The notes under the pieces were generated by a model. That model ran no database searches. It had not been told where the DNA came from and saw only the letters and a list, made by a program, of their open reading frames with translations. Below are positions 5,290-60,000 of a stretch of 60,000 nt of DNA, in pieces; the stretch's first letter is position 1, and the number at the start of each line of letters is the position of its first letter. A program made the position numbers and the translations under genes. The stretch is from Malacoraja senta (taxonomy: Eukaryota): positions 23,934,001-23,994,000 of the forward strand of contig CM075989.1 in assembly GCA_038087875.1 (NCBI GenBank). Direction: 5' to 3'.

Positions 5290-5489
5290 NNNNNNNNNNN
5301 NNNNNNNNNNNNNNNNNNNNNNNNNNNNNNNNNNNNNNNNNNNNNNNNNNNNNNNNNNNNNNNNNNNNNNNNNNNNNNNNNNNNNNNNNNNNNNNNNNNN
5401 NNNNNNNNNNNNNNNNNNNNNNNNNNNNNNNNNNNNNNNNNNNNNNNNNNNNNNNNNNNNNNNNNNNNNNNNNNNNNNNNNNNNNNNNN
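5290..5489. other. Assembly gap (200 N)
   Basis: Run of exactly 200 N, likely a placeholder of unknown true size. Confidence 0.99.
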
Positions 5490-12121: not shown

Positions 12122-12291
12122 ACTAGGTAGGCAAAAATGCTGGTGGAACTCAGCGGGTAGGCAGCATCTATGTAGAGAAGGAATAGGCGACGTTTCGGTT
12201 CTCTACCTAGATGCTGCCTCACCCACTGAGTTCCTCCAGCTTTTTTCGTCTACCTTCGATTTTTCCAGCATCTGCAGTTCCTTCTTAAACA
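12122..12291. mobile_element. Penelope-tail fold-back insertion with perfect 14-bp TSD
   Basis: tttattgtcacact at 12108-12121 and 12292-12305, with inverted arms between them. Confidence 0.8.
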
Positions 12292-13235
12292 TTTATTGTC
12301 ACACTCGTAAGTTTTTTTCTGCACCCTCTCTATACCATTTTTCAAATTGAACCTGTGAGCTGTTATGATCTGGAGTGGACCATGTGGAGGGGAAGTAAAT
12401 TGACTAGGAATTGGCTAAATGCAATTTGGATATAACTAGGAGAGGGTATCGAGTGTGCATGCCAGTGGGAATGTTATGGGTCCAGACTAACTTCTTTCAA
12501 GTGGCTAGCAGAAGCAAAATGGCCTGAATGGTTCCCCTTGATTTGCAAGATGTGCGAGCCAAAAGATGCCTTGATCTTGAGACAGTTTCATCCAAGAATC
12601 CTACTGGGTAGTTCCCTATTTCAATGTGATTTATCAATTGACAGGTCAGGGTATAGCACGGAAACAGGCCCTTCGGCCCACCGAGTCTGCGCCGACCTGC
12701 GATCCCCGCACACGAGCACTATCCTACACACACGAGGGACAATTTACAATTATACCAAGCCAATTAACCTACAAACCTGTACGTCTTATATGTGTAGCTT
12801 TATTGATTTTTTCCTTCAAAAATTCTTTCAAATATAAATGGTTAATTCCTCAGTTCCTTGCTTGTATTTTCAAGGATTGTGTTGCAAATATCTGTTTGCT
12901 CAGTAATTCTCACATCCTTTATCAGGCTACGCTGCAGAATTTCACACAAACTGTGTTAAGACTCGAATATAATGTTTAAAACAATTCAGTAAACCCGAAC
13001 ATTGGCAAAAACACTGATACACCCCCATTGCCACCACATTGCGGCGATAAGCGGCAGTCACTCACAACCTCCCTGACTTTTTTTATCAACCACTTCCTTT
13101 TGTCTACCTCTTCTTTTGAACCTTTGAACCATTTCTATGTATTTACACTTCCTGTCGAAGATTTTAGTTTGTATTCTGCCTTCATAATGTTCACCATTAA
13201 TCATTCTCTTTAAACGTACACTGAGCTGACTTTGG

Positions 13236-13512
13236 TGTACGAAAGAACTGCAGATGCTGGCTTAAATCGAATGTAGACACAAAATGCTGGAGTAACTCAG
13301 CGGGTGAGGCAGCATCTCTGGAGAGAAGGAATGGCCGACGTTTCGGGTCGAGACCCTTAACCGAAACGTCGCTCATTCCTTCTCTCCAGAGATGCTGCCT
13401 CACCCGCTGAGTTACTCCAGCATTAAGGGTCTCGACCCTAAACGTCGCCCATTCCTTCTCTCCAGAGATGCTGCCTTACCCGCTGAGTTACTCCAGCATT
13501 TTGTGTCTACCT
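13236..13512. mobile_element. Penelope-tail composite (one inverted + two tandem copies)
   Basis: A minus-strand tail is followed by two plus-strand aaacgtc...ccagcatt units. Confidence 0.75.
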
Positions 13513-13739
13513 CTGAGATTACTTCTGCTTTCTGACTTCCATATTAAAATATACATCCCTGCTTAATATTGTCACATCTCACAAAATTTCAGTTGCCTTG
13601 GAAATTGCCCTGTCACTGACGACTTTATAATGAATCAGTTTCAAAGGTCAAGCAATTAATATTATGGTCTTCCCCTCAAAGATTTACTCGATGCTCTTTT
13701 CTGATATTTTGTGTGAGGTCGATTACTGTGTGGAGAATT

Positions 13740-14018: not shown

Positions 14019-14511
14019 TGGGCAATCCAACACAGGAGGAAACTAATGGTCAGAGAAATAGCCTGAATATACCTTCTGTTTACTCAACTTGACATCAAAT
14101 ATGACACTGAAGTTAAAATAGGCTGAGATGATATTTAACAGGTGTTGGGAACTGGAGTCGTTTGAGAATGGAATTTATCTCAGGAACTGAAGACTATCTG
14201 CATTGGGTTGGTGGTATTCTAGGTCATGTTGCAGACCATGGTTTAGATCAGAGATGCAGCATGGAAACAGGCCCTTCAGCCCACCGGGTTCGCGCCGACC
14301 AACGATCCCCGCACACTAACACTATCCAACACACACTGGGACAAATTTTTACATTTACCAAGCCAATTAACCTACAGACCTGCATGTCTTTGGAGTGTGG
14401 GAGGAATCCGAAGATCTCGGAGAAAACCCACGCAGGTCACGGGGAGAACATACAAACCCAGTACAGACATCATCCGTTGTCGGGATCGAACTCGGGTCTC
14501 CGGCACTGCAA

Positions 14512-14766
14512 GAGATGCTGCCTGACCCGCTGAGTTACTCCAGCACTGTGTGAAACGTCACCTATCCATGTTCTCCACAGATGCTGCCTGACCCGCTGAG
14601 TTACTCCAGCACTCTGTGAAACGTCACCTATCCATGTTCTCCACAGATGCTGCCTGACCCGCTGAGTTACTCCAGCACTCTGTGAAACGTCACCTATCCA
14701 TGTTCTCCACAGATGCTGCCTGACCCGCTGAGTTACTCCAGCACTGTGTGAAACGTCACCTATCCA
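14512..14766 (+). repeat. 66-bp tandem array derived from the Penelope tail (~3.9 units)
   Basis: Unit tgaaacgtcacctatccatgttctccacagatgctgcctgacccgctgagttactccagcactctg, period 66 (e.g. 14581 to 14647). Confidence 0.92.
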
Positions 14767-17686: not shown

Positions 17687-18319
17687 CAGATACTGCATCA
17701 ATGGAATAACATTTAGTGCAAGATAAAGGTACAGGTGTCAGAGGTTACGGGGAGAAGGCAGGAGAATGGGGTTAGGAAGGAGAGATAGATCAGCCATGAT
17801 TGAATGGCGGAGTAGACTGGTAGGGCCGAATGGCCTAATTCTGCTCCTATCACTTATGACCTTATGACAAAGTTCAGTCCAGACGGTGCAGGACTGGCAG
17901 ATTCTTCGGGTTGCTCGATATTTCTTCCATTAATAGCTCAAGCTGTTGTTCCCAAAGATCAAGCACAGAGTGAAGGGGGAGTGGGATTAAAATTGGGACA
18001 TGGGTTGTTGAGAAAGATGGGATGTGCAGAGTCTAGTGAATGATGCAAGGGAAGTGGAAGTTATTGGGTGATGTGTGATGTATAAAGTGCAAAATGACAC
18101 AGAAATGAACTAAATTCCATTAAATGAACAGCGTTTCATTTGTTTTTTCCTGAGCAATCTTGTTCTGTAACAGACTACCTGATATATTGAGGACTACCAA
18201 AGAAAAATAGGGAAAGAAATTCAGTGTCTCAGAACAAGTGCAATATATTTTTTCATCTAATTATAGGTTTCAGAATTATTGTAGAAACAAAGGACTGCAT
18301 ATGCTGGTTAACACACAGA

Positions 18320-18537
18320 CTGAGGAATTGTCTCGACCTGAAACGTCACCTATCCATGTTCTCCACAGATGCTGCCTTACCCGCTGAGTTACTCCAGCAC
18401 TCTGTGAAACGTCACCCATCCATGTTCCCCACAGATGCTGCCTGACCTGCTGAGTTACTCCAGCACTGTGTGAAACGTCACCTATCCATGTTCTCCAGAG
18501 ATGCTGCCTGACCCGCTGAGTTACTCCAGCACTCTGT
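18320..18537 (+). repeat. Degenerate hammerhead motif followed by 3 units of the 66-bp repeat
   Basis: Same unit as 14512-14766. Confidence 0.85.
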
Positions 18538-19535
18538 GGCCTTTTGGAATTAATAGCCAATGACGACCTCCACAGCCGTCTGTGGCAATGAATTCCACAG
18601 ATTCACCATCCTCTGACTAAAGACATTCCTCCCCATTTTATTCACCTCCCTTTCCTTTAATCCACCATCAGCGACCAAGTCTATCCTTCATCTCATGAGG
18701 AAGCAGGAAACCCTCGCTTGTGGGATATCTGTCCCAAACTCTCAGCACAGTTTTAGGTTATTCTAATTTTTGTTTTCTCCTTCACATCTACACCTTCAAT
18801 TAAGTTTCTGATCGCCCATCTCTTGTGTTTCGTTGTCACATTTTGCCTGATTATTATATACCTAAAAAGCACGCTCGGGATGTCCCCAATGCCAATATTA
18901 CAATGCTAATCTAAGTTTCCTGGCTGTCAAAGTGGACTCGGCCAAACCCCCAACTAGAGCGTCATTGACCTGAGATGAATCGTATCACGTGAAATCCCAG
19001 CCTTTCCAAACAAATTCTTCATCTCACTCTCCCCGCTCCCTCAAGCTGAGCTTTTTACTGCACTGATTAGCCATTTAATTGCTTTTCTAGATCGCTCAGG
19101 ATTGAAATAATTGCTGCTGTAATTGTTCTTGTTGCTTGCTGATGTTTTATTCTTGAGGGGGAGCTGGCCTCTGCGATGATCTGCTGCAGTGTTGCGATTA
19201 ATTACACTTGCTCTGGGGCTGTGCACATTATCTCTGTAAATTGAGACGAGTTTTCGCTCAGCGCGGTAAATCAAGCCTGTGTTTGTTGTATGTTTTTGTG
19301 ATTCTCTGCTTGGATCTGTTCAATGTACTTCATCGTTCACGCATCCAGGGAACCACAGCTGATTAGCAACCTAGACTTTTGCAAGACACAAGGAACTGCA
19401 GATAGAAACATAGACAATAGGAGCAGGAGTAGGCCATTCGGCCCTTCGAGCCAGCACCGCCAGTCAATATGATCATGGCTGATCATCCACAATCAGTACC
19501 CCATTCCTGCTTTCTCCCCATATCCCTTGATTGTC

Positions 19536-20485: not shown

Positions 20486-21502
20486 ACGAGAAAAAAAGAG
20501 CTGATTGTCGAATGTCAGGAAAATAAATAATATTAAAGAGACAGCACAATAAAGCTGCATAAACCACTTCCAAACATACTGCAGTAAAACATGAATAGAG
20601 GCTGAGTGAAAGATATCTGGGTACTCACTGAGAATGATTCCAACTCGTTCCGATCAAAAGGATGGAATTGGACCTTAGCCATGAATTTTACATCTACTCT
20701 TGACCATGCAGACATCTATCTGGCTGACGTTTTCTATTTCACTCTTTGCAAACCCAGGATTATCCAAATGTCTTTTGCCAATCTTTAATTTTTAAATGAT
20801 CCCAAGTTTGTTTACAGACCCCTCCATGGTCTCGCCCATTCTTGCGTCTCACCTCCTTCAGTTCAGCCTTCCTCTGAGATTGTTGTTCCTGTCCAACGGT
20901 CTTCTCTTGGTGCGCTAAGTTCCGTTGCTTTGCCACTGGAGGCGGTGGCCTCCGCTAAAAAAACTCAGATCTTCCCTCTCTCTTCCTTTAATCAGCCAGA
21001 GCAGGTAGTAGTGGCAGAGACTATAACAACAATGAAAAGACCTTTGGACAGGTACATGGATAGGAAAGATTTGGAGGGATATGGGCCAAACGCAGTAGGG
21101 TGGGACTAGTGTAGATGGCACATGTTGGTCAGCGTTGGGCCGATGGGCCTGATTCCATGCTGTAAGACCCTATGACTATGTGAATCTTAAGTGTGTCGAT
21201 CTGAAATGCTGACTAATCATTTCTGATGATGCTGCTGCCTTACCTGTTGAGTTACTAAGAGTGGTTCTGCAATTGTTCATTAGAAGTGCTCTGATCTTTT
21301 AAACCTTTATTTACTGGCCTTTATCCTGCACTAAACGTTATTCCCTTTATTTGTACACTGTGGACGGCATGATTGTAATCAAGTATAGTCTGGATAGCAC
21401 GCAACATAGAAACATAGAAAATAAGTGCAGGAGTAGGCCATTCGGCCCTTTGAGCTAGCACCACCATTCAATATGACCATGGATGATCAGCTAAAATCAG
21501 TA

Positions 21503-21680
21503 GTTTAAGAAAGAACTGCAGATGCTGGTAAAATCGAAGGTAGACACAAAATGCTGGAGAAACTCAGCAGGTGAGGCAGCATCTATGTGATGTTTCGGGT
21601 CGAGACCCGAAACGTCACCGATTCCTTCTCCCCATAGATGCTGCCTCACCCGCTGAGTTTCTCCAGCATTTTGCGTCTAC
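21503..21680. mobile_element. Penelope-tail fold-back insertion nested in a CR1 tail
   Basis: Flanks cagctaaaatcagta (21488-21502) / cagctaaattcagta (21681-21695). CR1 sequence is continuous across the insertion. Confidence 0.8.
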
Positions 21681-22398
21681 CAGCTAAATTCAGTATCCCG
21701 TTCCTACTTTCTCCCCATATCCCTTGATTTAGTTAGCTCTAAGAGCTATATGTAACTCTCTCTGACTGATGTACAAATTTGTTAGCCACCCAGAGTTAGA
21801 AACTGGAAGTCCTCGACTGCTCAATCAATAATCACGGGCTTTGTACAAATGATAGAAGCATTAAGATTAGGGGCCTTGAATCTGAGTTTCTTGTGACAGC
21901 AAGGAATTCTGATCAAAGAGCAGCTGCATCATTGCTAACCTGGAAAAGGCCTCGTCTAGCAGATGTTCAGGTGCTGTTGTGCAGAAATCCACAGTTAAAC
22001 TCGTTCCCAGGGGATGCATGAGGCTGGGTGGTAAACTCATCCTCAACATTTTAATGCTGCAAACACCTATTAGCAACAGAAACCCAATCGGCTGCCAGCT
22101 GAAAGTATGCGAGGCAAGGAGTGTGAAAAAAACATCAAATTCAGCACTCTAGGAATCAAATCTGTACCTTCTGAGATATCTTGCAAGAACATTGTGTATA
22201 TATTCACTTTAAACACATTTGGTTTATTATTTTAATCCAATTGCCATCAATGCAAGTTGGTGAATTTCTGGTGGTTTATTGGGATGGTTCCATTGTGCGT
22301 TTACCGTCAGCGTGGCTGGGGATTCCAGCACCGGCCTCTTGAGGGTTGCTCCTTCAATGTGTGCCGTATCGCATCTATCGCTGTGCACCCTTCTCTTT

Positions 22399-25035: not shown

Positions 25036-26190
25036 TGTCAGAAAATTACAAATATTAAGAAAAGAAACATTTGGACATGTAAGGTTTCAAGTTGTTGAAT
25101 AGCATGATTGGACATTGCATAACTAACGTACTTTATTCTAGACAGCATATCATTCATTTATTTGTTCTATATCTCTCTATATATATCTCTCGTTTCTCCT
25201 TTCCCGACTCTCAGTCTGAAGAAAGGTCTCGACCCGAAACGTCACCCATTCCTTCTCCCCAGAGATGCTGCCTGACCCGCTGAGTGACTCCAGCATTTTG
25301 TGTCTATCTTCGGTTTAAACTAGCATATGCAGTTCCTTCCCACACACAAGCTTTATTCTGCTTCTTATCATGTGTTCCAATTCCAAGGAAGGTTGTTGCA
25401 TATTCAGATGCCTTATCAACGAAGGCCAAACGAACTGAATTGAAACAAGGAGTTAACAATATTTCACTGTGTCAGATTTTTAAAAAAGAAGCAAATGATG
25501 ACTCATTGATAGAAATACAAAAAAAGCATTGACATGGGCAGGGATTTATCACAGACAACGTTAAACTGGTTAACGAACAGAGCAAGTTTCATCTAAACAT
25601 TATTTTAATTTTCAGTCAAATAGAGAGATCAGTTGTTTAGCCATTTCATGACAGAGGTGATGATCCGATGACACTATTGTCACATGTACCTCGGTACATT
25701 GAGAGTCTATGTTTTTGCGGACAGTACTCAGCGTACACAAAGAGTCGCCATGTTTCAGGCACAGACGATGTTACAAAATTACTCGTTCGAGTCATGTTGG
25801 CTCCTCTGTGTTCCAGGTGTCCTCCCCCGCTGGCTCCCTCCTTGTTCATAAGTTCTAGGAGCAGAATTAGGCCATTCGGCCCATCGTCCACTCCACCATT
25901 GAATCATAGCTGATCTATCTTTCCCTCTCAACCCCTTTCTCCTGCCCTCCCCATTTCTCATCTTGCTTCCCACATGGTGCCCAACCCCGTGACTATTTGC
26001 TTGCTCGCCACAGAAGCAGATGTACAATCACATATTACAATCGCTCCACACTCTTAAACGCTGTGAGTGGCTCGGTCGTAATCATGTATTGTCCTTCCGC
26101 TGACTGGAGAGCACGCAACAAAATCTTTTCACTGTACCTCGGTACACGCGACGTGCCGGAGTAACTCAGGCAGCATCGAAAAGATCTGCA

Positions 26191-26712
26191 GTCTGAAGAA
26201 GGGTCCCGACCCGAAACATCACCTATCCATGTTCACCAGAGATGCTGCCTGACCCGCTGAGTTACTCCAGCACTCTGTGAAACGTCACCTATCCATGTTC
26301 TCCACAGATGCTGCCTGACCCGCTGAGTTACTCCAGCACTCTGTAAAACGTCACCTATCCATGTTCCGGCAGCATCTATGGAGCGAAGGAAATAGGCAAA
26401 GTTTCGGCCCGAAACCCTTCCGGGTTTCGGCCCGAAACGTTGCCTATTTCCTTCAGGGTTTCGGCCCGAAAGGTTGCCCATTTCCTTCGCTCCACAGATG
26501 CTGCCTGACCCGCTGAGTTACTCCAGCACTCTGTGAAACGTCACCTATCCATGTTCACCACAGATGCTGCCTGACCCACTGAGTTACTCCAGCACTCTGT
26601 GAAACGTCACCTATCCATGTTCTCCACAGATAGTATTATCAAGGATCAGTGTTAACAGCATTTTGTGTCTATCTCAGGTGTAAACCAGCATCTGCATTTC
26701 CTTCCGACACAA
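26191..26712 (+). repeat. Composite Penelope-tail array: hammerhead motif + 66-bp units + internal palindromic insert + tail
   Basis: 66-bp units flank an inverted second-subfamily segment at ~26368-26500. Confidence 0.88.
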
Positions 26713-27674
26713 TTGATCAGAAAGATGGAATTTTAAGAAAGAAAAGGGTAACGTCTGTGAGGGAGATATTATTCTCGTCAGTATTTGTGAGATTCCACAC
26801 GGACATTTGGTGTCGCTCTGACATTTTCCCTCTCTCCATCTCGGACTTCACCGAGAGTTGCGGATCAATAACACTCGGTAGCACGACATCCGACTGCACT
26901 GCAATATCATCTTCAAGGTGTCTGCTCCCTGCCAGAACATCTACTTCTGTTTCTAATAAAATCTCAGCTCTGTTCCAGGGAACATTTAAAAGTGCTGAAG
27001 TTGCATGAAACAAAAGAATATCAAAGATTCCCCACCAGAATTGATTGATCCTGACTCTGGACCTGGCATCTCTTCCCACTGCCAAGGCAGCTGCAGTTGA
27101 TTCATTCTCCGACTTCTCAAATCAGCGTGAAATACCTCACCACAGACAGGCTGGCCTTTTCATTTAAAATGGTGCATTTTTCTTCTCTAAAAGCAAGGGA
27201 TGATGAATGAAATAATCCTAGTGTCAACAGAGTGTGTGTGGTAACAGTCGGCACTACTCCGCCAATGACAAGCAAACCTCAGGCACGATATCCCACGATG
27301 TCGGCATCGTTCTCACTGTGGCTTATCCAAAGTCAATAGTTGGAATCCTGAACGTAACTTCTGGGGCGGCACAGTGGCGCAGCGGTAGAGTTGCTGCCTC
27401 ATGGCGCCAGAGACCCGGGTTCGATCCTGACTACGGGTGCTGTCTGTACAAAGGATGTACGTTCTCCCCGTGACCTGCGTGGGTTTTCTCCAGGTGCTCT
27501 GGCTTCCCCCCCCACACTCCAAAGACGTACAGGTTTGTACTCTAATTATCTTCTGTAACTTAGCACCAGTGTGTTGGATGGAGCAAGTGTAATATCTCTA
27601 AATTTGTGTTTCTGATTTTCTTTTTTGTGCCTTTAGAATGAATTCTGTCCTTAATTTGTGTATTGTGATGTTAC

Positions 27675-31875: not shown

Positions 31876-32073
31876 AGATACGCACAAAAAGCTGGAGTAA
31901 CTCAGCGAGACAGGCAGCATCTCTGGAAAGAAGGAATGGGTGAAGTAATGGGTCGAGACCCTTCTACGTCACCCATTCCTTCTCTCCGGAGATGCTGCCT
32001 GTCCCGCTGAGTTACTCCAGCTTTTTGTGTCTATCTTCGGTTTAAACCAGCATCTGCAGTTTCTTCCTGCACA
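31876..32073. mobile_element. Penelope-tail fold-back insertion ~230 bp upstream of exon 2
   Basis: ~70-bp inverted arms. Flanks ttccttatgtattaa / ttcataatgtattaa. Confidence 0.78.
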
Positions 32074-32302
32074 TTCATAATGTATTAATATCTGCTTGTA
32101 GTAAGCATTTTTTTTTTAACAGATTCAAGAGTATTTTATTATCATGCGTCCCGAAACAGAACAATGAAATTCTAACTTGCCACAGCACAACAGAATATGT
32201 GAAAAGAAAAATGTTGCCAGCGTGTTTTCAACAATTAGTTTTATTTGCATTCAAGTACGGCTTGTCAGTGTGTGACGTTGATCTTATCGTTTTGTTTTGC
32301 AG

Positions 32303-32371
32303 TTTGTCAGCGAGAAAATGGGTGGAGCTGAAGGAACAAAACTAGACGATGATTTCGTGGAGATGGAACGG
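32303..32371 (+). CDS. SH3GL3: Endophilin-A3 coding exon 2 ([23 protein letters not shown])
   Basis: Acceptor ttttgttttgcag, donor gtacga, 69 nt, phase 0/0. Contains the [11 protein letters not shown] endophilin motif. Confidence 0.95.
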
Positions 32372-33592
32372 GTACGAGAACGAACTGCTGTGAAAAGATT
32401 CTGGCAAATGGTTCAATAAAATACTTCAGGCCCGTGATTAAACATGGCACACACAAGGTTTGAGACAAAGGATTAGAGAGTTACAAATTGTGAAGCTTGA
32501 GTTTTAGTTCAGTTTAAAAATACAGCACGGAAACAGGCCCTTCTGCCCACCGAGTCCACACCGACCAATGATCAAGTGAGAGTTAGATTTGTTTTTATAT
32601 TTAAGAACAGATTAAATTATTTTCAGTTCCAGAAGGTGGAAGGTTATTATTATATATATTTTTAAATACTTGTTTCCAAATTGTGCAGTGCAATTTAATT
32701 TCCAAATAAAGAACATACAGTGTGGAAACAGGCCCTTCGGCCCAACTTGCCCACACTGGCCAACATGACCACTTACGCTGGCAGCTCATTCCATATACCA
32801 ACCACCCTTTGTGTAAGAAAAAGTTCCCCTCGGATTCTTTATTAAATCATCCTCTCCACCCCCCCCCCCCCCCCCCACACCCCTCAATGTAAACATCAGA
32901 TTCCCATTAAATCTTTCCCCCTCCACCCTAAACCACCATCTTGCACTATTATCGCTTTTAGTCAAGTGAAATGTCCAAAGCACTTCACTAGAACAGGCAG
33001 GCCAATTTTGAGTAGAAAGGAACTGCAGACGCTGGTTTAAACTGAAGATAGACACAAAAAGCTGGAGTAACAGCGGGACAGGCAGCATCTCTGGAGAGAT
33101 GGAATGGGTGACGCTTCGGGTTGAGACCCTTCTTGAGGAGCAAGATTACAGAGGATATATTGTTTATTTTAGTTTAATAACCACTTTTTTCTTTCTTATT
33201 TAAGAAAATAGATGCTACGAGTAAAGCTGTGGCTGATGTTCTGTCTAAAACAACTGAGTACTTGCAGCCGAATCCAGGTATGAAAGTGTACCATGAACGG
33301 CTTTTAACTTTCCTTCGCCATTTCTAGTTTATCTGCTTTTCAGTGAGACTAGGACTTTTGTTAATACTAGAGAACAAGGCATATTGAAGGCAAAAGATAC
33401 CAACCTTTGCTAGGTTCCATTAATGTAGGGGTACTGACCTCCCCGCTGTCAAAGGCATCTCCAGGAGTCACTGCCTCACAAAGGCACCTTATAACTGTGC
33501 CCTCCAGAGTTGCATATGTCCACCCTGGGATAAAGGTTGTGATTGTCTACACTATCTATGCCTCTCATAATTCTGTGTGTGTGTGTGTGTAC

Positions 33593-33627
<35 letters not shown>

Positions 33628-33716
33628 CATATATGTGTGTGTGTGTATACATATATGTGTGTGTGTGTGTGTGTGTGTGTATACATATATGTTTGCGTGT
33701 GTGTGTGTGTGTATAC

Positions 33717-33755
<39 letters not shown>

Positions 33756-33812
33756 CATATATATGTGTGTGTGAATATTCATATATGTGTGTGTGTGTGT
33801 GTGTGTATATAC

Positions 33813-33855
<43 letters not shown>

Positions 33856-34945
33856 CATATATGTGTGTGTGTATACGCATATATGTGTGTGTGTGTATAT
33901 ACATATATGTGTGTGTGTGTATATACATATATGTGTGTGTATACGCATATATGTGTGTGTGTGTGTGTGTATATGCGCTATACATTGAAGTATTTTAAAT
34001 GCGTCATGTCATTTGGAAGCCTACAGAGCCAAGTTAGGGATGCTCAACACGGTGTCAAAGATCCGAGGACAAGTTAAAACCACGGGCTACCCGCAGCCTG
34101 AAGGCTTGTTGGGAGAATGTATGCTGAGAAATGGAAAGGACCTCGGAGATGATTCCAATTTTGGTGTGTAGATCGGTAACGTTTTGTGCGATACATATTT
34201 TTCTTTTTCATTACATTTTAATTCTAGTTAAGTTGATAATGTGATTAAAATTTAAATCAATCGACCTGCATTTCACCGAAGAAAGACGCAAAATGCTGGA
34301 GTAACTCAGCGGGACAGGCAGCAACTCTGGAGAGAAGGAATGGGTAATGTTTTGGGTCGAGACCCTTCTTTAGACTGAGAGTCCGGGTAAAGGGAGACTA
34401 GAGATATGGAAGGGTAAGGTGTGAAAACAAGACATCAAAGGAAAATATATAGATTGTTAGCTAGGGGAAGGTAGTTCCTTCCTACACAACCTGCATTTCA
34501 CTTTTGCTTTAGGCATGATCTAAATGACTTCAATAAGTTTATACAGTTCAGATTTTTCAGCAATATAGAGAAGATCCTCACTTCATTTTTACGATCATTT
34601 TTCCAATTATGATCTAGTGCGTATAATTTGAGCTTTTACAATGAAAACACTTCCATGATTATGGTATTCAAACAATACAATGAATGAATTTGAAGATAGA
34701 CACAAAAAGCTGGAGTAACTCAGAGGGACAGGCAGCATCTCTGGAGAGAAGGGATGGGTGATGTTTCGGGTCGAGACCCTTCTTCAGACTAGTTAGGGAT
34801 AAGGGAAATGAGAGATATAGACGGTGATGTGGAGAGATAAAGAACAATGAATGAAAGATTTGCAAAAAAGTAACGCTGATAAAGGAAACAGCCATTGTTA
34901 GCTGTTTGTAGGGTGAAAATGAGAAGTTGGTGTGACTTGGGTAGG

Positions 34946-34976
<31 letters not shown>

Positions 34977-37900
34977 GGAATGCTGGGCTACCTGAAGTGA
35001 GAGAAATCAATATTCATACCACTGCCCAAGCGAAATATGAGATGCAGTTCCTCCAATTTGTGTTTAGCCTCACTCTGAAGGGTGGTCTGTATAAACCCCT
35101 CTGTGCATGCTGATTTTGTTACGTGCTTGATTTTTCAAGGTCCGGCTCTGGTCGATGTTGGTGAAGCGCTGAAACAAATGGGGGAAGTGAAGGATTCCCT
35201 GGATATCGAAGTAAAGCAGAATTTTATTGATCCGCTGCAAATTTTACAAGAAAAAGACTTAAAAGAAATTGGAGTGAGTATCTTTCCCCACGAACATAAT
35301 TGCAGTTCACTTTTTCTAGTTTACAGATACAGCGAGGAAACAGGTCCTTCAGCCCACCGAGTCCGCACCAACCAGCGCCCCCCCCCCCCCCACATTAACA
35401 CACACTAGGGACTGTTTACAATTATACCAAGCCAATTAACCTACAAACCAATTAACTACAAACCTGTACGCCTTTGGAGTGTGGGAGGAAACCGAAGATC
35501 TCTGAGAAAACCCACGCAGGTCATGGGGAGAACGTGCAAACTCCATACAGACAGCACCCATGGTCAGGATCGAACCCGGTCTGAGTTGACAAAGAGTGGA
35601 CAGGAAAAGTCCAAATGATCTATCATGTCCAAACAGGGCGTGTTTCCGCACTAGATCTCTAAAGTCTAATAGACCTGCAGCATATTCAGTATAACTTATA
35701 AAAAATACAATAAAGTGTAAAGTATCATTCATTCATTCCCTCATATTCTGTCTCTCATGCACTTTTGAATTCCTTGCCACATATATATTGGGAGGAATTT
35801 GTGGTGTGATGTGGGATCAATAATCTTTCATTGTAATAGATGAAAACATGGCCTGGAAAATATTGTTCCACTTCTCAACAACGAACCCAGTGAGCATGTT
35901 CAAGTTGAAAAATGTTTTCTGTGTAAATATTATTCAACAAATGGAGGATTCCTACTTAACGTGTTCTTATCTTGACAAAGCATCATTTAAAAAAGCTGGA
36001 GGGTCGTCGCCTAGATCACGATTACAAAAAGAAACGTCACGGTAAAATTCCCGACGAGGAGATCAGACAAGCGGTGGATAAATTTGAGGAGTCCAAGGAA
36101 CTCGCTGAGATCAGCATGTTCAACTTCCTGGAAAATGACGTGAGTGCTTGGCTAATCAGAACTCATCCCCCCGACCAACCCGAAGCCCACAAACCATCTT
36201 TAACTCAGTCTTAAACACGCAGAATAAAGTCAGAACGAATTTCAGCAAAGGGGAGAAGATTTACTGCTATGGGCTGATAATTACTGTTAAGACAATTATT
36301 TTTGAACTAAGGATTATTATATATAGATTTTTAATAAATAATATGGCAAGTCAAGATTAAATATATTTTAGACAATACATCAATTTCTTTGCAATTTTTT
36401 TGTTTAAAAAGCCTGTTTTTTGGCTATTTTGAATTGCAGCTTGCATAGATCAAGAAAAATTGGAATATGTTGCACGTACAGGTGAGCGATATGCAGATTG
36501 TTTGGCTGCAAACTAGTCCTGTGATTTAACTTGTACTGAATTCCTGAGTTCAATAAAGGCTGCAACTAAAAAGCTTTTAGGAAGCAAATCTCTGTCGGTA
36601 TCCTTACTTACTCCCTTCCAAATGTAACCACAGACATGCTTTCAATATTGTTTAGACTAGTCTTCTTGCTAAAGACATTTTCTTTTACCTACAGGTAGAG
36701 CAAATCAGTCAGCTCCTCGCTCTAGTGGAAGCCACACTGAGCTATCACAAAGAATCCACTACAATCCTGGAGCAGCTTCACAACACACTACAGAGCAGGT
36801 GCAGTTCCAAACCGTGCGTGGGGGGGGGGGTCTAGGATTCAAGTCTGGTCCATGGGCATTTTGAAATTAACCAGTGAGACGCAAATAACAAAAGACGAAA
36901 ACTGGGTAGAGTCTAGAACCAGAGAGCACAGCCTCAAAATAAAAGGACGTACCTTCGGAAAGGAGATGAGCAGGAATTTCTTTAGCCAAAGGGTGGTGAA
37001 TCTGTGAAATTCATTGCTACAGACAGCTGTGGAGGCCAAGTCATCAGGTAATTGTAAAAGAAGATAGACACAAAATGCTGGAGTAACTCAGTGGGCCAGG
37101 CAGCATCTCTGGAGACAAGGAATGGGTGACGTTTCGGGTCGAGGCCCTTTATCTTCGATTTAAACCAGCATCTGCAGTTCTTTCCTACACAGGGTATTTG
37201 TAAAACACAGATTGATAGGTTCCTGAACAGCAAGGGTGTCAAAGATTATGACACTCGAGTGTCAGCGTGGCTTTGTCTTTTTGAGAAGATGACAAGGTGA
37301 TTGATCGAGAAGGGCAGTGAATGTTGTCTACAGGACTTTGTTAAGACATTCGGCAAAGTCCCTCATGTTAGGCTGATTCAGCAGATGAAGATGCATGGTG
37401 ACTTGATGGTGTGGATATAGAACTGACTTACCCACAAAAGACAGGGCATTGGTGCAAGGGTGTTATTCTAAGCTGTCAGAAGTCAGGCAGACCATAAAAA
37501 CCTTGTATGTTTTTCTTAAAGGATCAGCATAGTCTCCAGCCGTCCGAAGCGTGACTTCAAGCCTAAGCCTGCAGTTGCTTCATCCTTTGAGCCTATCGAC
37601 AACCCACAACTCAATGGTCTTTCGTACAATTCCTCTTTCAGGTCATCTGGTAAGAATACTTACGTGAATATTAGAATGAAACTTGTAGAATTGTACACAT
37701 ACTTCAGTGCTCTTTAGACTGAAGAGCAAAATGGAGGTGGCACCAAACCAAAAATGGTGGCGCGGCAGAAGTGTTGCTGCCTCACAGCGCCAGAGACCCG
37801 GGTTCGATCCTGACTACAGGTGCTGTCTGTGCGGAGTTCTCCCTGTGACCGCGTGGGTTTTCTGCGGGTGCTCCAGTTTCTTCCCACATCCCAAAGACGT

Positions 37901-40900
37901 GTGAGTTTGTAGGTTAATTGGCTTCTATAAATAGCCCCGCGTGTGTAGGGTGCAGAGTGGGCAGAAGTGGTGTACGGGTGATTGCTGGTCGGCATGGACT
38001 CAGTGGGCAGAAGGGCCTGTTTCCATGCTGCATCTCCAAACTAAAAGTGATGTATATACAGTAATATATATGCAATAATTTTCCAGGATCACCTGCATAA
38101 AACCTGCAGATCTGATCCTAAAAAGACCTTCAGAATTTTTGATATTCTATACCATTATATCTCAAATTGATGGTCTTAATGTTAATGTTAATATAATGTA
38201 TGTTTTGTACTTGCACTTTTATTTAGTTTGCCAAGATTGTATGTTTAGCTGTGCGTTGGTTCATGTAGTTCCTGCACTAGCCTGCAGGTGTCAGTCCTTG
38301 TTTCCCTTTCTGTTATCATGTAGCTAAACTTTCCCCATTCAGGTCCCTTTGCAGGTCAAGGTGTACCTGTTCACCTTGTGAGTAGCTTTCCTAAACCAGT
38401 GTGTGTGCGTGTGATGCACTCCTCTTTTCAGCATGTTTGAAAATCACCACCACCACCTCTCTCCAAAAACTCTCCCTACCCTTAGATCAGTGGTTCTGAA
38501 CCTGGGGGTCTGGACCCCCATGGGGGGGGGGGGTCATTTGGGGCTTTACCGGGGGACATGAAGAGCTCATAAATAACAGATCCATTTGTTGAGCCCATGT
38601 TTGGGAACCTAACAAAGGTACATACCACATACAGTATTTTGTTTGTGTATGCACGTACGTGGATATGACAGGTTTGGAGGGATATGGAGGGATATGGACC
38701 AGGTGCAGGCAGGTGGGACTAGTGTAGCCGAGACATGTTGGCTGGTGTGGGCAAGTTGGGCCGAATGGGCCTGTTTCCACACTGTCTCACTCTGTGACTA
38801 GTGTAGCTGGGACATGTTGGCTGGTGTGGGCAAGTTGGGCCGAATGGGCCTGTTTCCACACTGTCTCACTCTGTGACTAGTGTAGCTGGGACATGTTGGC
38901 TGGTGTGGGCAAGTTGGGCCGAATGGGCCTGTTTCCACACTGTCTCACTCTGTGACTAGTGTAGCTGGGACATGTTGGCTGGTGTGGGCAAGTTGGGCCG
39001 AATGGGCCTGTTTCCACACTGTCTCACTCTGTGACTAGTGTAGCTGGGACATGTTGGCTGGTGTGGGCAAGTTGGGCCGAAGGGCCTGTTTCCATACTGT
39101 CTCACTCTGTGACTCTGTAACCAATTATTGACAGGTCAACAGTCTTGTGTAGGATGGAACTGCAGATGCTGGTTTCAGCGTGAAGATAGACACAAACTGC
39201 TGGAGTAACTATTCAAATAATGGGCACTATTTTCTTGAAAGGTTTTATTAACATCCACTATTATGGGAATGGACCATAATATTAAAATAAAAATTAGTAA
39301 ATTAGGTTCGGGTTTTTTATCCATATTTCTAGGAAAACACTAGGAAACGACAGAGCCTATTAGATCCAATGTAGGAAAGAACATTTCCATTTCCAACCAC
39401 AAGTCTGAAGAAGGGTCTCGGCCGGAAACGTCACCCATTCCTTCTCTCCAGAGATGCTGCCTGTCCCGCTGAGTGACTCCAGCATTTTGTGTCTATCTCC
39501 CATTGTCCATTAATAGAAACATAGAAACATAGAAAATAGGTGCAAGAGTAGGCCATTCGGCCCTTCGAGCCTGCACCGCCATTCAATATGATCATGGCTG
39601 ATCATCCAACTCAGTATCCCGTACCTGCCTTCTCTCCATACCCCCTGATCCCTTTAACCACAAGGGCCACATCTAACTCCCTCTTAAATATAGCCAATGA
39701 ACTGGCATCAACTACCTTCTGTGGCAGAGAATTCCACAGATTCACCACTGTTTTAAGATATTTGCAGAAATTTGTTTATTTGTAATTAACTAACTAACTG
39801 GTTTGGAAATATTGCAAGGTGAGAGAAACTGAGGTAAGCAGTACACTCAAGGACTGAAGTGTAACGTTTCAGTAGCCTAATGTAGAAACATAGAAAATAG
39901 GTGCATTAGGCCATTTAGCCCTTTGAACCAGCACCGCCATTCAATATGATCATGACTGATCATCCAGAATCAGTACCCCATTCCTGCTTTCTCCCCATAT
40001 CCCTTGATTCCATTAACCTTCAGAGCTGTATCTAACTCTCTTGAAAACATCTAGTAAATTGGCCTCCACCGCCTTCTGTGGCAGAGAATTCCACAGATTC
40101 ACAACTACTCCGGGTGAAAAAGTGTTTTCTCATCTCAGTCCTAAATGGCCTACCACTTATTCTTAAACTGTGACCTCTGGTTCTGGACTCCCCCGCCGTC
40201 GGGAATAATGTAGGTACACAACAATTACTGTATTTTGCTGAGCCCATTTTCACGAAAAGCAGTATTTTTCTCTTGCTGTTCCATAAAATACAACACGTAT
40301 TGAGATATTATAACTATCCAAGTTACATAAGTAAGTGATAGAACATAGAACAGTACAACACAGGAACAGGCCCTTCAGCCCACAATGTCTGTGCCGAACA
40401 TGATGCCAAGTTAATCATCTGCCTGTACATGATCCATATCCCTCTCATAATCATAATCATACTTTATTAGCCAAGTATGTTTTGCAACATACGAGGAATT
40501 TGATTGCCATACAGTCATACTATAAAAGCAACAAGATACACAAAATACATTTTTACATAACATCCACCACAGTGACTCCTCCACATTTCCTCACTGTGAT
40601 GGAAGGCGGAAAAATAAGTTCAGTCTCTTCCTTCTTTGTTCTTCCGCGGTCGGGGGCCTCGAGCTTCCGTTGATGGGACGTTCTTGGCTCCGTAGCCAGC
40701 GGTCGGGCCCTCCGCATCGGGGCGATCAAGCTCCCGCATCAGGGGGATCTCAGCTCCCCCACGCCGGGCGATCGGACCCCGGGTCGGGGTTGGTCAAACC
40801 TCCTGCTGAGTGGAGCTTCCCGACATCAGTCTCTACCCGAGACTGCGAGCTTCTCGATTTGAAATCCGCAGGTCGCGGTGTAGCGTTGATCCCAGGCAAG

Positions 40901-41857: not shown

Positions 41858-42320
41858 AGCCGATCCAATTTTGTAAATGTTCGGATACAGAACACAGACA
41901 TTTCATCAGTGTGGCATTCCGTGAAAGCCTTGCTCTTTGAGTGACTTTTGTACGTCTTCTATTTGTCTATTTATTTTTTTACATGTTCCATTTGTATTGA
42001 AGATGTTTATGTCTTTTTGCTACAAGAGTAATTGCAAATCTTACCTATTTCTGCCAGCAAGTTCACAGTTTATAAGTATACGGCTGTAACTATTTAACTT
42101 TTACTTGCGCTCTGAATCTTTTGTTGCTGATTACAGTGGGGGAAATTTTCTATTTAGCTGTAATAAGAATATTCTTGATACAGTTTAATTATTGTGGTTA
42201 TAATTAACTGTTATTAACGTTTTAAGATTCTGACCTGTTCTTGAGCCATTTTATTTGGCAGTGTAATTTATTGTTCTGCACAGATGCCATAATAAATGTG
42301 TGTAAAAACTGTAATTTAAC
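41858..42320 (+). other. SH3GL3: Probable SH3GL3 3' UTR
   Basis: Repeat-free, U-rich sequence from the stop codon to AATAAA. The end coordinate is approximate. Confidence 0.65.
42291..42296 (+). terminator. Polyadenylation signal AATAAA of SH3GL3
   Basis: First canonical AATAAA I see after the stop, with GU/U-rich sequence downstream and before repeats resume at ~42390. Confidence 0.7.
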
Positions 42321-53900: not shown

Positions 53901-54660
53901 AGGTTCAATGATTGGGGATGAATCACTGGCAGCAGCTTTGAACATAGGACAATACAGCACAGGAACAGGCCCTTCAGCCCACAATGTTTGTGCCCAACAT
54001 GATGCCTAATTGAACTGATCTCATCTGCCTGCACATGATCCATATCCCTCTACCCCTACCCTTCCACGTGCCTATCTACAAGCCTCTTAAACGCCACTAT
54101 CGTCTCTGCCTCCACCACCACCCCCGGCAGTGCGTTCCCGACCCTTGCTACATTAGTTTTAGTTTTAGAGATACAGGGCGGAAACAGGCCCTCCTGTCCA
54201 CGAGTCGGCGCCACCCAGCGATCACCTGTATCTCCCCTACTCTCAGTCTGAAGAAGGGTCTCAACCCAGCGATCACCCGTACACTAGTTCTATCGCACAC
54301 ACTAGGGACAATTTACAGGAGCTAATTAACCTACATACTTATACTCTTCTATCTTCTATGTCTAGTCAGCACAGTGGTGCTGTTACTGGTAACTGAACCA
54401 TTCTATCACCAACTAGAGAGCGGTCCTCACCTCCTCTCTACCTTATTGGAGATCCTCGGACTATCTTTAATCGGACTTCACGGTACTTTACTGAACGTTA
54501 TTCCCTTTATCCTGTATCTGTCCACTGTGGACGGGTTGATTGTAACTTGTATAGTCTTCCAGTTGACTGGATAGCACAGCACGCCACCTCTGTACTCGTG
54601 ACAATAAACTAAACATACACGATAAAAAAACTAACAAAAATGAAAACACTGAATGTTAAA

Positions 54661-55473
54661 GACACAGAGTGCTGGAGTAACTCAGCGGGTCAGGCAGCAT
54701 CTGTGGAGAACATGGATAGGTGACGTTTCACAGAGTGCTGGAGTAACTCAGCGGGTCAGGCAGCATCTGTGGAGAACATGGATAGGTGACGTTTCACAGA
54801 GTGCTGGAGTAACTCAGCGGGTCAGGCAGCATCTGTGGAGCGAAGGAAATGGGCAACCTTTCGGGCCGAAACCTCGAAAGGGTTTCGGGCCGAAACGTTG
54901 CCTATTTCCTTCGCTCCATAGATGCTGCCGGAACATGGATAGGTGACGTTTTACAGAGTGCTGGAGTAACTCAGCTGGTCAGGCAGCATCTGTGGAGAAC
55001 ATGGATAGGTGACGTTTCACAGAGTGCTGGAGTAACTCAGCGGGTCAGGCAGCATCTGTGGAGAACATGGATAGGTGACGTTTCACAGAGTGCTGGGGTA
55101 ACTCAGCGGGTCAGGCAGCATCTGTGGAGAACATGGATAGGTGACGTTTCACAGAGTGCTGGGGTAACTCAGCGGGTCAGGCAGCATCTGTGGAGAGAAG
55201 GGATGGGTGACCTTTTGGGTTGAGACCCTTCTTCAGACTGAGAGTAGGGGAGATACAGAGATAAGGAAGTGTAAGGTGTGAGAACGAAACATCAAAGTGG
55301 GTTGAAGATTCCAGGAATAGGAGAAGGTAACAACAAAGCAGAGATAAAATGTAATCTGGGACAGTCAGACTGGTCAGAGAACTGGGAAGGGGGAGGGATG
55401 GTGAGAGAGGGAAAACAAGGTGTTACTTGAAGTTAGAGAAGTCAATATTCATATGGCTGAGGTGTAAGCTGGA
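54661..55473 (-). repeat. Penelope 3' fragment extended by a composite 66-bp array with an internal palindromic insert
   Basis: On the minus strand: ORF end, 3' UTR, degenerate hammerhead (55205-55239), then ~7 units. The insert at ~54830-54930 matches 26368-26500. Confidence 0.88.
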
Positions 55474-57672: not shown

Positions 57673-58537
57673 GGTGCATTGACCAGTTGATGATCTAACC
57701 CCCAGACAAAGTTCATTTCCAGCTCATTTAGATTTAGAAATGACAGTACCTCCGTCGCTAAAGTGCCTCGGATTATTAAGTTGGGTTGTGTGTGGAGAAA
57801 CAGAGTTTAGGATTATTTTATAAGGTGCTTTAGAAGTTTGTGTATTTTCTATTACATTTGATGATTGTTGCACCGACTTGTGTTTGAACCATTTGTCATG
57901 AGGATGTTTATCCTTTCTGAAGATAGACACAAGAAGCTGGAGTAACTCAGCGGGACAGGCAGCATCTCTGGAGAGAACGTTTCGGGTCGAGACCCTTCTT
58001 CGGACTTGTTCAAAACTCCCTCTCCAGTGCTTTCAAAATCATGTCTCCAGGGTCTACAAATGTCACAAGGGTTTCACTTTAATATTAATCAATCCATTTA
58101 CAAATGCAACTGTACTTTTCAGACTGAATCTTCAAAGATAAATATCAACCATTTGGTTGGCACTTTGACACCTACCCACAGCGGAGAACTGATTGGAACT
58201 CATTTGAGGAGAATTCAGTTCAGTTTAGTTTATTGTCACGTGTACCGAGGTACAGTGAAAAGCTTTTTGTTGCCGGCTAACCAGTCAGCAGAAAGACAAT
58301 ACATGATTACAATCGAGCCATTCAGTGTACAGATGATAGGGAAATAACGTTTAGTGCAAGGTAAAGCCATTACAGTCCGATCGAGCATAGTCCGAGGGTC
58401 ACCAATGAGGTAGATAGTTCAGCACTGCTCTCTGGCTGTGGTAGGATGCTTCAACTGGTCCTGAATTGAGGAGAATGAATCACATCTGCTCAGTCATGCT
58501 GCATCTACCCTTCAGGAACCAAGCACAAATATCAGCA

Positions 58538-59140
58538 ATATATATTGGCGAGACCGAGCGCAGGCTCGGTGATCGTTTCGCAGAACACCTCCGCTCAGTC
58601 CGCCTTAACCTACCTGAACTCCCAGTTGCTCAACACTTTAACTCCCCCTCCCATTCCCAATCTGACCTTTCTGTCCTGGGCCTCCTCCATTGTCAGAGTG
58701 AGGCCCAGCGCAAATTGGAGGAACAGCACCTCATATTTTGCTTGGGCAGCTTACACCCCAGTGGTATGAATATTGACTTCTCTAACTTCAAGTAACCCTT
58801 GCTTTCCTTCTCTCTCCATCCCTCCCCCTTCCCAGTTCTCCGACCAGTCTTACTGTCTCCAACTACATTTTAACTGTGTTTGCTTTGTTGATACATTCTC
58901 CCAACTAACAACGATCTATTCTACATCGTCCTGGATCTCCATTCCCTTTGCCCTGTTTTCACACCTTTATACTTGCTTATCTATGTATCTACCTCTCCCC
59001 TGATGTCAGACTGAAGAAGGGTCTCGACCCGAAACGTCACCCATTCCTTCTCTCCACAGATGCTGCCCGTCCCGCTGAGTTACTCCAGCATTTTGTGTCT
59101 AACTCTAATTCAAACCAGCATCTGCAGTTCCTTCCTACAA
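58538..59140 (+). mobile_element. Penelope-like element 3' fragment: GIY-YIG endonuclease C-terminal part, 3' UTR and hammerhead-bearing tail
   Basis: [85 protein letters not shown] has the YIG-ET-R..R..EH, E and GxN pattern of PLE GIY-YIG domains. Confidence 0.88.
59011..59038 (+). ncRNA. Minimal hammerhead ribozyme motif ~215 nt after the GIY-YIG stop
   Basis: CUGAAGA-A-GGGU-CUCG-ACCC-GAA-ACGU-C. Confidence 0.65.
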
Positions 59141-60000
59141 ATCTCGCAGCATGTTGATATTGTCAGTCACTAGGATCAGGGCATTACTATAAATAGGAGG
59201 CAGATTAGCTTCATAAATACATAGGAATTATGCAGCATGGAAACAGGCTCTTCAGACCAACACCGTTGATTAGTACAGGCGCCAGGGGTTCTGGGCCAAG
59301 GCAGGAGAATGGTGTTGAGGGGAAAGATAGATCAGGCACGATTTAATGGCGGAGTAGACTTGAAGGGCCGAATGGCCTAATTCAGCTCCTGTAATTTATG
59401 AACTTATGAACACAAGGACCAGTCTCGCCCCGGTCACTCCCTCTTCTCCCCTCTCATGTCAAAGTCAAAGTCAAAAGGTCAAAGTCAAATTTATTCATCA
59501 CATACACCAACGAAGGCACAGGGAAATGGATTTGCCAGCAGCGATACACTTTAAAAAATGAGGTCAACACAAACATCCACCACAGCGTTCCTCACTGTGG
59601 TGGAAGGCAACAAAGTTCAGCCAGTCCTCCTCGTTTGTTCACATCCGTGGTGGGGGCCATAAACCCTCCGTAGCCGCCGCTACGAACGGCCGGATGCACA
59701 GGCCCTCTTGTCGGGATGATCCAAACTCCGACGTCGGGACGGTCGAACACACTCGGAGCGGCCGATGTCCACAAGGTACAGAGGTTTGAAAGCACATACC
59801 TCCAGATTCAAGGACGGGCAACTGAACCGTCCACTCACCAGCTAGAGTGTGGTCCTGACCTCCCACCTACCTCGCTGGAGACCTTTGAATTATCTATAGT
59901 TGGACTTTACTAGACTTTATTCCTGCACTAAACATTATTCCCTTTATCCTGTATCTGTACACTGTGGACGGCTCGATTATAACTTGTATTGTCTTTCCGC

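What the first reader, a model, noticed from the sequence alone, without database searches (positions are those of the whole stretch)
26191..26712. The same composite array, with identical private junctions, occurs twice 28 kb apart in opposite orientation
Seen: 26341-26500 (ctgtAAAACgtcacctatccatgttCCGGCAGCatctatggagcgaagg...ggtttcggcccGAAAGGttgcccatttcc) is nearly the reverse complement of 54830-54960. The two share the taaaacg variant unit, the ttcc|ggcagc fusion junction to the second subfamily, and the gaaaggtt variant. Unit counts differ, and only the 26-kb copy has an extra internal duplication. Inference: the chimeric array (66-mers + fold-back insert) is itself a mobile unit, or was copied locally by gene conversion. 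Either way it is a higher-order non-autonomous element.
Basis: partly seen in the sequence, partly recalled or inferred. Interest (0 to 1): 0.7.

Follow-up and report, generated by a model that had tools for sequence, protein, structure and literature searches.

The report
Hairpin-carrying Penelope tail array
Two stretches of a skate-like genome are related copies of a short tandem repeat built from the tail of a very common jumping gene (a Penelope-like element) with a hairpin spliced into it; it is most likely one young sub-family of that jumping gene, a variation on known behaviour rather than a new system.

Summary
Observation confirmed. 26280-26631(+) matches 55018-54700(-) with 6 substitutions and a 33-bp indel; flanks are unrelated. 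The repeat is the terminal repeat (pLTR) of a Penelope-like retrotransposon (PLE): monomers carry minimal hammerhead heads and follow GIY-YIG C-termini. Six 64-66-bp arrays lie in the window; the units lack the ribozyme core. In two arrays a 91- or 124-bp fold-back from a sister subfamily sits inside one unit with no loss. Head-to-head fold-backs are routine here (8 others). Each copy has parts the other lacks. In contigs of the best-matching run the 'private' GAAAGG letter is far more abundant than two loci give (rough floor about 700 copy-equivalents) and about 5-fold richer than in three relatives. A dispersed young subfamily is therefore favoured (0.6) over local conversion (0.25). The junction itself could not be counted genome-wide, and neither copy has a target-site duplication. 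It fails the retrozyme test. The scan had no look-alike sequence; ribozyme-free PLE-type tandems were noted in other genomes. New variant of a known kind; interest 0.3.

The parts
26153..26177 (-). Short inverted, internally deleted piece of the pLTR body just 5' of the array (PLE-type 5' inverted copy; whether it arrived with the array is not known)
   Evidence: Inverted arms I5-I8 and I14-I17
26189..26212 (+). Array head: minimal hammerhead core and stem II; the following palindrome is broken (CA in place of CG), so the motif is incomplete
26213..26344 (+). Two 66-bp units (pLTR body without the ribozyme core)
26345..26366 (+). Left part of the interrupted unit, with the shared AAAAC variant
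26367..26490 (.). 124-bp fold-back insert from a sister pLTR subfamily: inverted arm 26365-26418, a 33-bp extra direct piece, direct arm from 26455 with the GAAAGG variant; placed in the unit with no loss of unit sequence
26491..26631 (+). Rest of the interrupted unit, one full unit and a 31-bp partial unit (array ends inside a unit)
26632..26655 (.). 24-bp unrelated spacer, the same length as the missing part of the unit; unexplained
26656..26711 (+). Older pLTR 3' end with the optional tail; its last part is contiguous with the orthologous flank in three relatives, so it predates the species split
   Evidence: table 8 records 8, 16, 24, 32
54660..54839 (-). Second copy: rest of the interrupted unit and two units, ending at the natural pLTR 3' end
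54840..54930 (.). Second copy: 91-bp fold-back insert, same junctions and GAAAGG variant
54931..55240 (-). Second copy: AAAAC part-unit, three units, and a first unit whose head belongs to another, older subfamily (hammerhead GAAA broken); the switch lies in about 20 bp of shared sequence
55241..55470 (-). 5'-truncated older PLE remnant (last codons of the endonuclease domain and 3' UTR) fused to the second copy; 86% identical to the remnant at 58747-58901
58520..59142 (+). Reference PLE remnant in the window: GIY-YIG C-terminus, 3' UTR, complete minimal hammerhead, pLTR body and tail; ties the repeat family to PLEs
14513..14766 (+). Sister 66-bp array without the insert (others: 18316-18540 +, 55785-55914 +, and an older 64-bp two-unit form near 510-650 -)

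Best explanation
It is a young, non-coding subfamily of Penelope-like pLTR derivatives. Step 1 (shown): the 66-bp unit is the body of the pLTR without the hammerhead core, amplified head to tail and present at six unrelated sites in the window. Step 2 (anatomy shown, mechanism inferred): in one ancestral array a unit took up a head-to-head fold-back of a sister subfamily with no loss of unit sequence. Most likely the PLE endonuclease cut the array and both broken ends primed reverse transcription on sister-subfamily RNA. One end primed through about 20 bp of homology, the other through a 2-base microhomology, and the two cDNAs were joined where they stopped at hammerhead stem II. Step 3 (inferred): this composite became a source copy and was copied in trans by PLE reverse transcriptase and endonuclease to many sites, often into or beside older pLTRs. 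The two copies here are independent descendants, later reshaped by unit slippage and a 33-bp gain or loss at the hairpin tip. No host function is needed. The 26-kb copy lies in sense orientation in intron 1 of an endophilin-A gene, so its hairpin is probably transcribed passively (inferred).
For: PLE identity: the 91-aa frame at 58520-58792 matches skate and ray proteins (87% to the best hit); 2 of 6 hits scanned carry RVT_1 and 5 of 6 carry GIY-YIG, the latter below the curated cut-off. The same C-terminal motif occurs at 6 places, one directly upstream of the 54-kb copy. 4 of 17 heads meet all minimal-hammerhead features. 5 of 6 head-to-head pairs carry the tail at one end only, as in PMC8557442 Fig. 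2. Third source: the 26-kb copy has a head and 33 bp that the 54-kb copy lacks; the 54-kb copy has the natural 3' end and the ancestral arm letter that the 26-kb copy lacks; flanks are unrelated. High copy number: at 26472 only 38% of summed contig depth in run X1 reads the ordinary C, against 81-82% in X2, X7 and X8. The remainder is 2.8% of monomer depth against 0.5-0.6%, about 700 to 22,000 single-copy equivalents; four control positions show no such drop in X1. Two of six arrays would carry the insert with P=0.0015 if only 1% of arrays genome-wide did and sampling were random. Age: 1.3-1.9% between copies and 1.3% of units from the majority, against 17-18 differences in about 370 bp of orthologous flank in relatives. 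Two templates: 5 of 52 stem pairs mismatch in the 54-kb hairpin, against 2 of 75 in an ordinary fold-back. The anole PLE protein cuts and extends both strands, can home to its own pLTR and does not need ribozyme cleavage in vitro (PMC11167929).
Against: The junction was never counted outside the window: no genome is held, no listed contig piece spans it and two collection scans were empty. The depth figure is for one letter, not the junction. It is the remainder after the commonest other letter, the tool says summed depth is no copy number and that some differences were not counted, and the letter could belong to a monomeric subfamily. No TSD was found for either copy or for any of the 6 arrays, whereas 5 of 8 ordinary fold-backs have 9-15-bp TSDs (only 3 of 15 single monomers do). 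All shared non-consensus marks fall within about 135 bp, as a conversion tract would. Three arrays end inside a unit, which initiation at the natural 3' end does not explain. No intact PLE and no RNA evidence was seen.
Confidence: 0.6

Rival explanations
1. Local ectopic gene conversion: two ordinary 66-bp arrays already sat 28 kb apart in inverted orientation, and the insert with its neighbouring variant was copied from one into the other by homology-directed repair. The composite is then not a mobile unit.
For: Shared non-consensus marks are confined to about 135 bp around the insert; none of the other unit variants is shared. No TSDs. Long identical unit runs on both sides of the insert are ideal homology arms, and the two are the best inverted pair in the window.
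Against: The GAAAGG letter has a summed depth thousands of times that of two loci and is about 5-fold enriched over relatives. The copies are about as diverged as unrelated units of the family, so the event is not recent.
Confidence: 0.25
2. The composite is dispersed, but by a DNA route: array fragments or small circles patched into breaks, or converted into older pLTRs, without PLE reverse transcription.
For: 0 of 6 arrays have a TSD; arrays start and stop at different points in the unit; in the 54-kb copy the array replaces the body of an older pLTR through about 20 bp of homology.
Against: 2 arrays end at the natural pLTR 3' end, 4 begin at or in the hammerhead head, and the 26-kb copy has a PLE-type inverted 5' piece. 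PLE insertions without a TSD and with microhomology joins are described (PMC3846280).
Confidence: 0.11
3. One copy is an assembly artefact, or the two arose independently.
Against: The copies differ by 6 substitutions, a 33-bp indel, heads, ends and unit number, which a misjoin would not create. The only N gap is at 5290-5489. The right flank contig agrees letter for letter up to the repeat. Independent origin would have to repeat two junctions and three variants.
Confidence: 0.04

Closest known systems
pLTR fragments of endonuclease-bearing Penelope-like elements, with partial tandems, 5' inverted copies and the 30-40-bp tail (Craig et al. 2021, PMC8557442; Arkhipova et al. 2013, PMC3846280)
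   Same: Sequence source, head-to-head fold-backs with palindromic junctions, tail at one end only, TSD in some insertions and microhomology joins in others.
   Different: Here the tandem unit is a 66-bp sub-piece of the pLTR, and the fold-back sits inside the array, comes from a sister subfamily and is inherited by separate insertions.
Animal non-LTR retrozymes (Cervera and de la Pena 2020, PMC7229834; Li, Clavereau and Pollet 2026, 10.64898/2026.07.22.740005)
   Same: Non-coding tandem repeats related to PLE pLTRs, a few units long, dispersed, proposed to use PLE enzymes; reported in one chondrichthyan genome.
   Different: Retrozymes carry a complete type I hammerhead in consecutive units. 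Here no 66-bp unit or insert has the core and the single heads are damaged, so self-cleavage into circles is not expected.
PAc, the Poseidon PLE of Anolis carolinensis (Frangieh et al. 2024, PMC11167929)
   Same: Supplies the mechanism borrowed here: cutting and extension of both strands, homing to its own pLTR, two initiation sites bounding the tail, ribozyme cleavage not needed in vitro.
   Different: PAc is autonomous and kilobases long; the clade of the element here (Poseidon or Neptune) was not determined.
Non-autonomous Chlamys PLEs such as MRC1 (passage in PMC8557442)
   Same: Non-autonomous PLE derivatives giving multicopy head-to-tail insertions; most Chlamys lack canonical hammerheads.
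   Different: Green algal elements of another PLE clade; no inherited internal hairpin is mentioned in the passages seen.
Composite VNTR-containing retrotransposons such as SVA (recalled, no call)
   Same: A chimera of retroelement pieces with a variable tandem repeat, moved in trans.
   Different: SVA uses L1, has a poly(A) tail and TSDs; none of these is seen here.

Membership tests
PLE pLTR-derived sequence | Repeat lies downstream of an RT + C-terminal GIY-YIG ORF | tested here: met
   C-terminal motif at 6 places in the window, one upstream of the 54-kb copy; homologues carry RVT_1 (2 of 6) and GIY-YIG (5 of 6, below curated cut-off). The window's own frame gave no Pfam hit; the atlas gave GIY-YIG clusters at 0.95. 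No RT remnant in the window itself.
PLE pLTR-derived sequence | Minimal type I hammerhead in the repeat (extra base after A9, G10.1-C11.1, palindromic 15.2-16.2; PMC4209133) | tested here: met
   4 of 17 heads meet core, 4-bp stem II, GAAA, palindrome and UH; the rest are decayed. Rfam gave no hammerhead match up to E 5.
PLE pLTR-derived sequence | Head-to-head inverted copies and a 30-40-bp tail at one end only | tested here: met
   5 of 6 pairs found by script have the tail at exactly one end; 13 of 38 non-array cores have it.
Non-LTR retrozyme | Complete hammerhead in at least two consecutive units | tested here: not met
   At most one core per array, in the head; none in 66-bp units or the insert.
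Non-LTR retrozyme | Expressed as self-cleaved linear and circular monomer RNA | not testable with these tools
   Only contigs were offered, and RNA runs held 0.16 or less of the words; none was laid.
Mobile composite non-autonomous PLE | Many dispersed copies with the same internal junction | tested here: inconclusive
   2 copies with unrelated flanks; one diagnostic letter is high-copy and enriched; junction not counted genome-wide.
Mobile composite non-autonomous PLE | Own target-site duplication | tested here: not met
   No TSD scoring 8 or more for either copy under 5 boundary choices, nor for the other 4 arrays; 5 of 8 fold-backs and 3 of 15 monomers have one. A TSD is optional in PLEs (PMC3846280).
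Mobile composite non-autonomous PLE | Empty orthologous site in relatives | tested here: inconclusive
   Orthologous right-flank contigs of 3 relatives stop at 26684-26685 inside the older tail; none bridges the array.
Segmental duplication | Homology extends into unique flanks | tested here: not met
   Only dispersed-repeat matches over 3 kb each side.
MITE / microRNA gene | Terminal inverted repeats with TSD, or a curated miRNA family match | tested here: not met
   Both arms are internal pLTR pieces; Rfam matches (mir-722, 35.5 bits against a cut-off of 81) are far below gathering.

The most novel reading that the evidence does not exclude
A ribozyme-less 66-bp pLTR array has become a lineage-specific parasite that homes into older Penelope terminal repeats, and one branch carries a captured hairpin of about 52 bp to hundreds or thousands of loci. 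Transcribed from host introns, it would supply double-stranded RNA against a competing sister subfamily. Its zero-loss insert with two unequal arms would also be a genomic record of two-ended priming by a dimeric PLE enzyme, which bears on how PLE head-to-head inversions form.
Probability: 0.15. Interest if true: 0.6.

Novelty: new variant of a known kind. Interest (0 to 1): 0.3.

Why it matters
If the composite is a dispersed subfamily, it shows that pieces of a Penelope terminal repeat can keep spreading as short tandems without a hammerhead, and can carry a hairpin with them. Retrozyme screens require hammerheads in consecutive units and would miss such elements. The anatomy of the insert offers a way to test two-ended priming against self-priming as the source of PLE inversions, which is still open (PMC8557442, PMC3846280). 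If it is local conversion, it is an ordinary case of exchange between nearby repeats. No host function is indicated.

Tried and rejected
Genome-wide junction count: no whole genome is held. Exact scans for the junction gave 0 in metagenome contigs and genome contigs, and for the 66-bp junction 0 in metagenome contigs and viral contigs; these collections are not expected to hold fish DNA, so the blanks mean nothing. Laying contigs of 4 of the 24 listed runs on 25850-27050 was swamped by the repeat (182,000-229,000 contigs per run); no junction-spanning piece or empty site was listed. Rfam: only sub-threshold miRNA and hairpin matches. Pfam on the window's own endonuclease frame: no hit. Pfam on 100 of 176 longer open frames: one hit, a BAR exon. 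Segmental duplication, MITE, miRNA gene and retrozyme membership were rejected (see membership tests). Seven paper searches found no description of this 66-bp family or composite. Repbase and Dfam could not be searched, and the closed supplements of 10.64898/2026.07.22.740005 list chondrichthyan retrozyme families that may include relatives. Searches of the scan's own findings by sequence and place found no look-alike.

Full report
Setting. No whole genome is held for this window. The nearest named proteins come from skates and rays, so the host is taken to be a skate or ray. Coding exons of an endophilin-A (SH3GL) gene lie on the + strand from 32300 to about 41858. Its first coding exon was not found on the + strand of the window. 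The 26-kb copy therefore most likely lies in intron 1 in sense orientation, and the 54-kb copy about 13 kb past the stop codon.

Observation. The junction word, the AAAAC word and the GAAAGG word each occur exactly twice in the window, once per copy, on opposite strands. The shared block is 26280-26631(+) against 55018-54700(-): 318 aligned bases, 6 substitutions (2 at the hairpin tip) and a 33-bp indel. Over 3 kb on each side the flanks share only other dispersed repeats. Chance and segmental duplication are excluded. An assembly artefact is unlikely because the copies differ in letters, heads, ends and unit number, but no read or contig spanning either array was seen.

What the repeat is. 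The family covers 6155 bp (10%) of the window in 42 clusters, and 182,000-229,000 contigs per run were laid on the 1.2-kb stretch. Several monomers follow the same protein C-terminus, found at 6 places including just upstream of the 54-kb copy. The longest piece (58520-58792) matches 12 longer proteins. Of 6 of these scanned, 2 carry RVT_1 and 5 carry GIY-YIG, below the curated cut-off. The frame itself had no Pfam hit but drew GIY-YIG clusters in the atlas. Monomer heads fit the minimal hammerhead of metazoan PLEs described in PMC4209133 (parts 1-2 of 4 read): 4 of 17 heads meet all features and the rest are decayed. Of 6 head-to-head pairs found by script, 5 carry the optional tail at one end only, the pattern in the Fig. 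2 legend of PMC8557442 (passages read). Of 8 ordinary fold-backs, 5 have 9-15-bp TSDs, above the 95th percentile of a random-position control. The repeat is the pLTR of an endonuclease-bearing Penelope-like element, and fold-backs are its ordinary insertion product.

The 66-bp arrays. The unit runs from the GAAA of the hammerhead to a few bases short of the monomer end, so it lacks the catalytic core and stem II. Five arrays share the same unit junction (14513, 18316, 26189, 54660, 55785), and an older 64-bp form lies near 510-650. Fourteen full units differ from their majority by 1.3%. The same junction at unrelated sites means that the array itself is a dispersed young family. It is not a retrozyme by the criterion of 10.64898/2026.07.22.740005 (parts 1-3 of 5 read; supplements closed), which needs complete hammerheads in two consecutive units.

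The insert. It is 124 bp in the 26-kb copy and 91 bp in the 54-kb copy, and sits inside one unit with no loss of unit sequence. Both arms come from a sister subfamily that also occurs alone in the window (3055, 15866, 51700). The direct arm joins the unit inside about 20 bp shared by both subfamilies; the inverted arm joins through two shared bases. Both arms stop at hammerhead stem II. The RNA folds into a long hairpin (-98.3 and -89.5 kcal/mol, z about -12), which any inverted repeat would do. In the 54-kb hairpin 5 of 52 stem pairs mismatch, against 2 of 75 in the ordinary fold-back at 3 kb, so the arms had different templates or had already aged before the copies split. I infer a double-strand cut in an array with both ends primed on sister-subfamily RNA. 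PMC11167929 (parts 1-2 of 4 read) shows that a PLE protein cuts and extends both strands, may home to its own pLTR, and inserts without ribozyme cleavage in vitro. The alternative is self-priming, proposed in PMC3846280 (passages and Discussion read), or capture of an older fold-back. The extra 33 bp of the 26-kb copy matches the inverted arm at the two positions where the shared direct arm differs, so it may be ancestral.

Mobile or local? For a third source: the 26-kb copy has its own head, an inverted 5' piece and the 33 bp; the 54-kb copy is fused to an older PLE end of another subfamily and has the natural 3' end. In one search, table 3, the ordinary C at 26472 makes up 38% of depth in the best-matching run X1 and 81-82% in three relatives. 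The remainder is 2.8% of monomer depth against 0.5-0.6%. Divided by single-copy depth 30.1 it is about 22,000, or about 700 if each copy is counted up to 31 times by overlapping contigs. Four control positions show no drop in X1. Two loci alone would give a depth near 60 before such inflation. This figure is rough. The tool warns that summed depth is no copy number and that some differences were not counted. The remainder includes any letter other than C, and the G could sit in a monomeric subfamily. X1 may also be the sample the window came from. The copies are 1.3-1.9% apart, while the orthologous flank differs by about 4.7% in relatives, which fits amplification after the species split.

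Against mobility: neither copy, and none of the six arrays, has a TSD, although only 3 of 15 single monomers do. Three arrays end inside a unit. All shared non-consensus marks lie within about 135 bp, as in a conversion tract. The junction was not counted outside the window. Both copies touch older pLTR remnants, and the tail beside the 26-kb copy is shared with relatives; this fits homing but also conversion, and pLTR remnants cover a tenth of the window.

Comparison and verdict. It works like a non-autonomous PLE derivative or retrozyme. It is PLE pLTR sequence by the tests met, is not a retrozyme, and is unproven as a mobile composite. Seven paper searches found no account of this family; PMC7229834 was seen as passages only, and repeat databases could not be checked. 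The scan held no look-alike sequence, but had noted ribozyme-free PLE-type tandems in other genomes (not checked here). The comparison with SVA is recalled and comes from no call. Odds: dispersed young subfamily 0.60, local conversion 0.25, DNA-level dispersal 0.11, artefact or independent origin 0.04. New variant of a known kind; interest 0.3.

Noticed in passing
window 32300-41858 (+): Eight coding exons of an endophilin-A (SH3GL, BAR + SH3) gene; the first coding exon was not found in the window.
   Followed up: partly
window 38717-39114: Young 79-bp tandem (5.1 copies, 98%) of another repeat family whose unit junction has the same CACTCTGT|GA ending as the 66-bp arrays; a shared slippage or priming signal, or chance.
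   Followed up: no
window 26632-26655: A 24-bp unrelated spacer is exactly as long as the part of the unit missing between the array end and the older tail. It and the right flank of the 14.5-kb array both have AGTATT within three bases of the array end.
   Followed up: partly
window 13234-13514: pLTR fold-back followed by a 76-bp tandem unit that also skips the ribozyme core, an independent origin of the same kind of array.
   Followed up: partly
window 2977-3165, 12125-12291, 21500-21682, 31876-32074, 47290-47478: Ordinary pLTR fold-backs with 9-15-bp target-site duplications.
   Followed up: yes
window 15886-, 19952-, 55637+, 59011+: Four heads meeting all tested minimal-hammerhead features; Rfam does not detect them.
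   Followed up: partly
window 29278-29535-, 34991-35080-, 58472-58792+: Truncated PLE endonuclease remnants; the one at 35 kb ends about 60 bp from an endophilin exon.
   Followed up: partly
window 14380-14512 and 27363-27561: tRNA-derived SINE-like repeats (identity recalled, not tested); the 14.5-kb array truncates one of them.
   Followed up: no
window 5290-5489: 200-N scaffold gap beside long (AC)n tracts.
   Followed up: no
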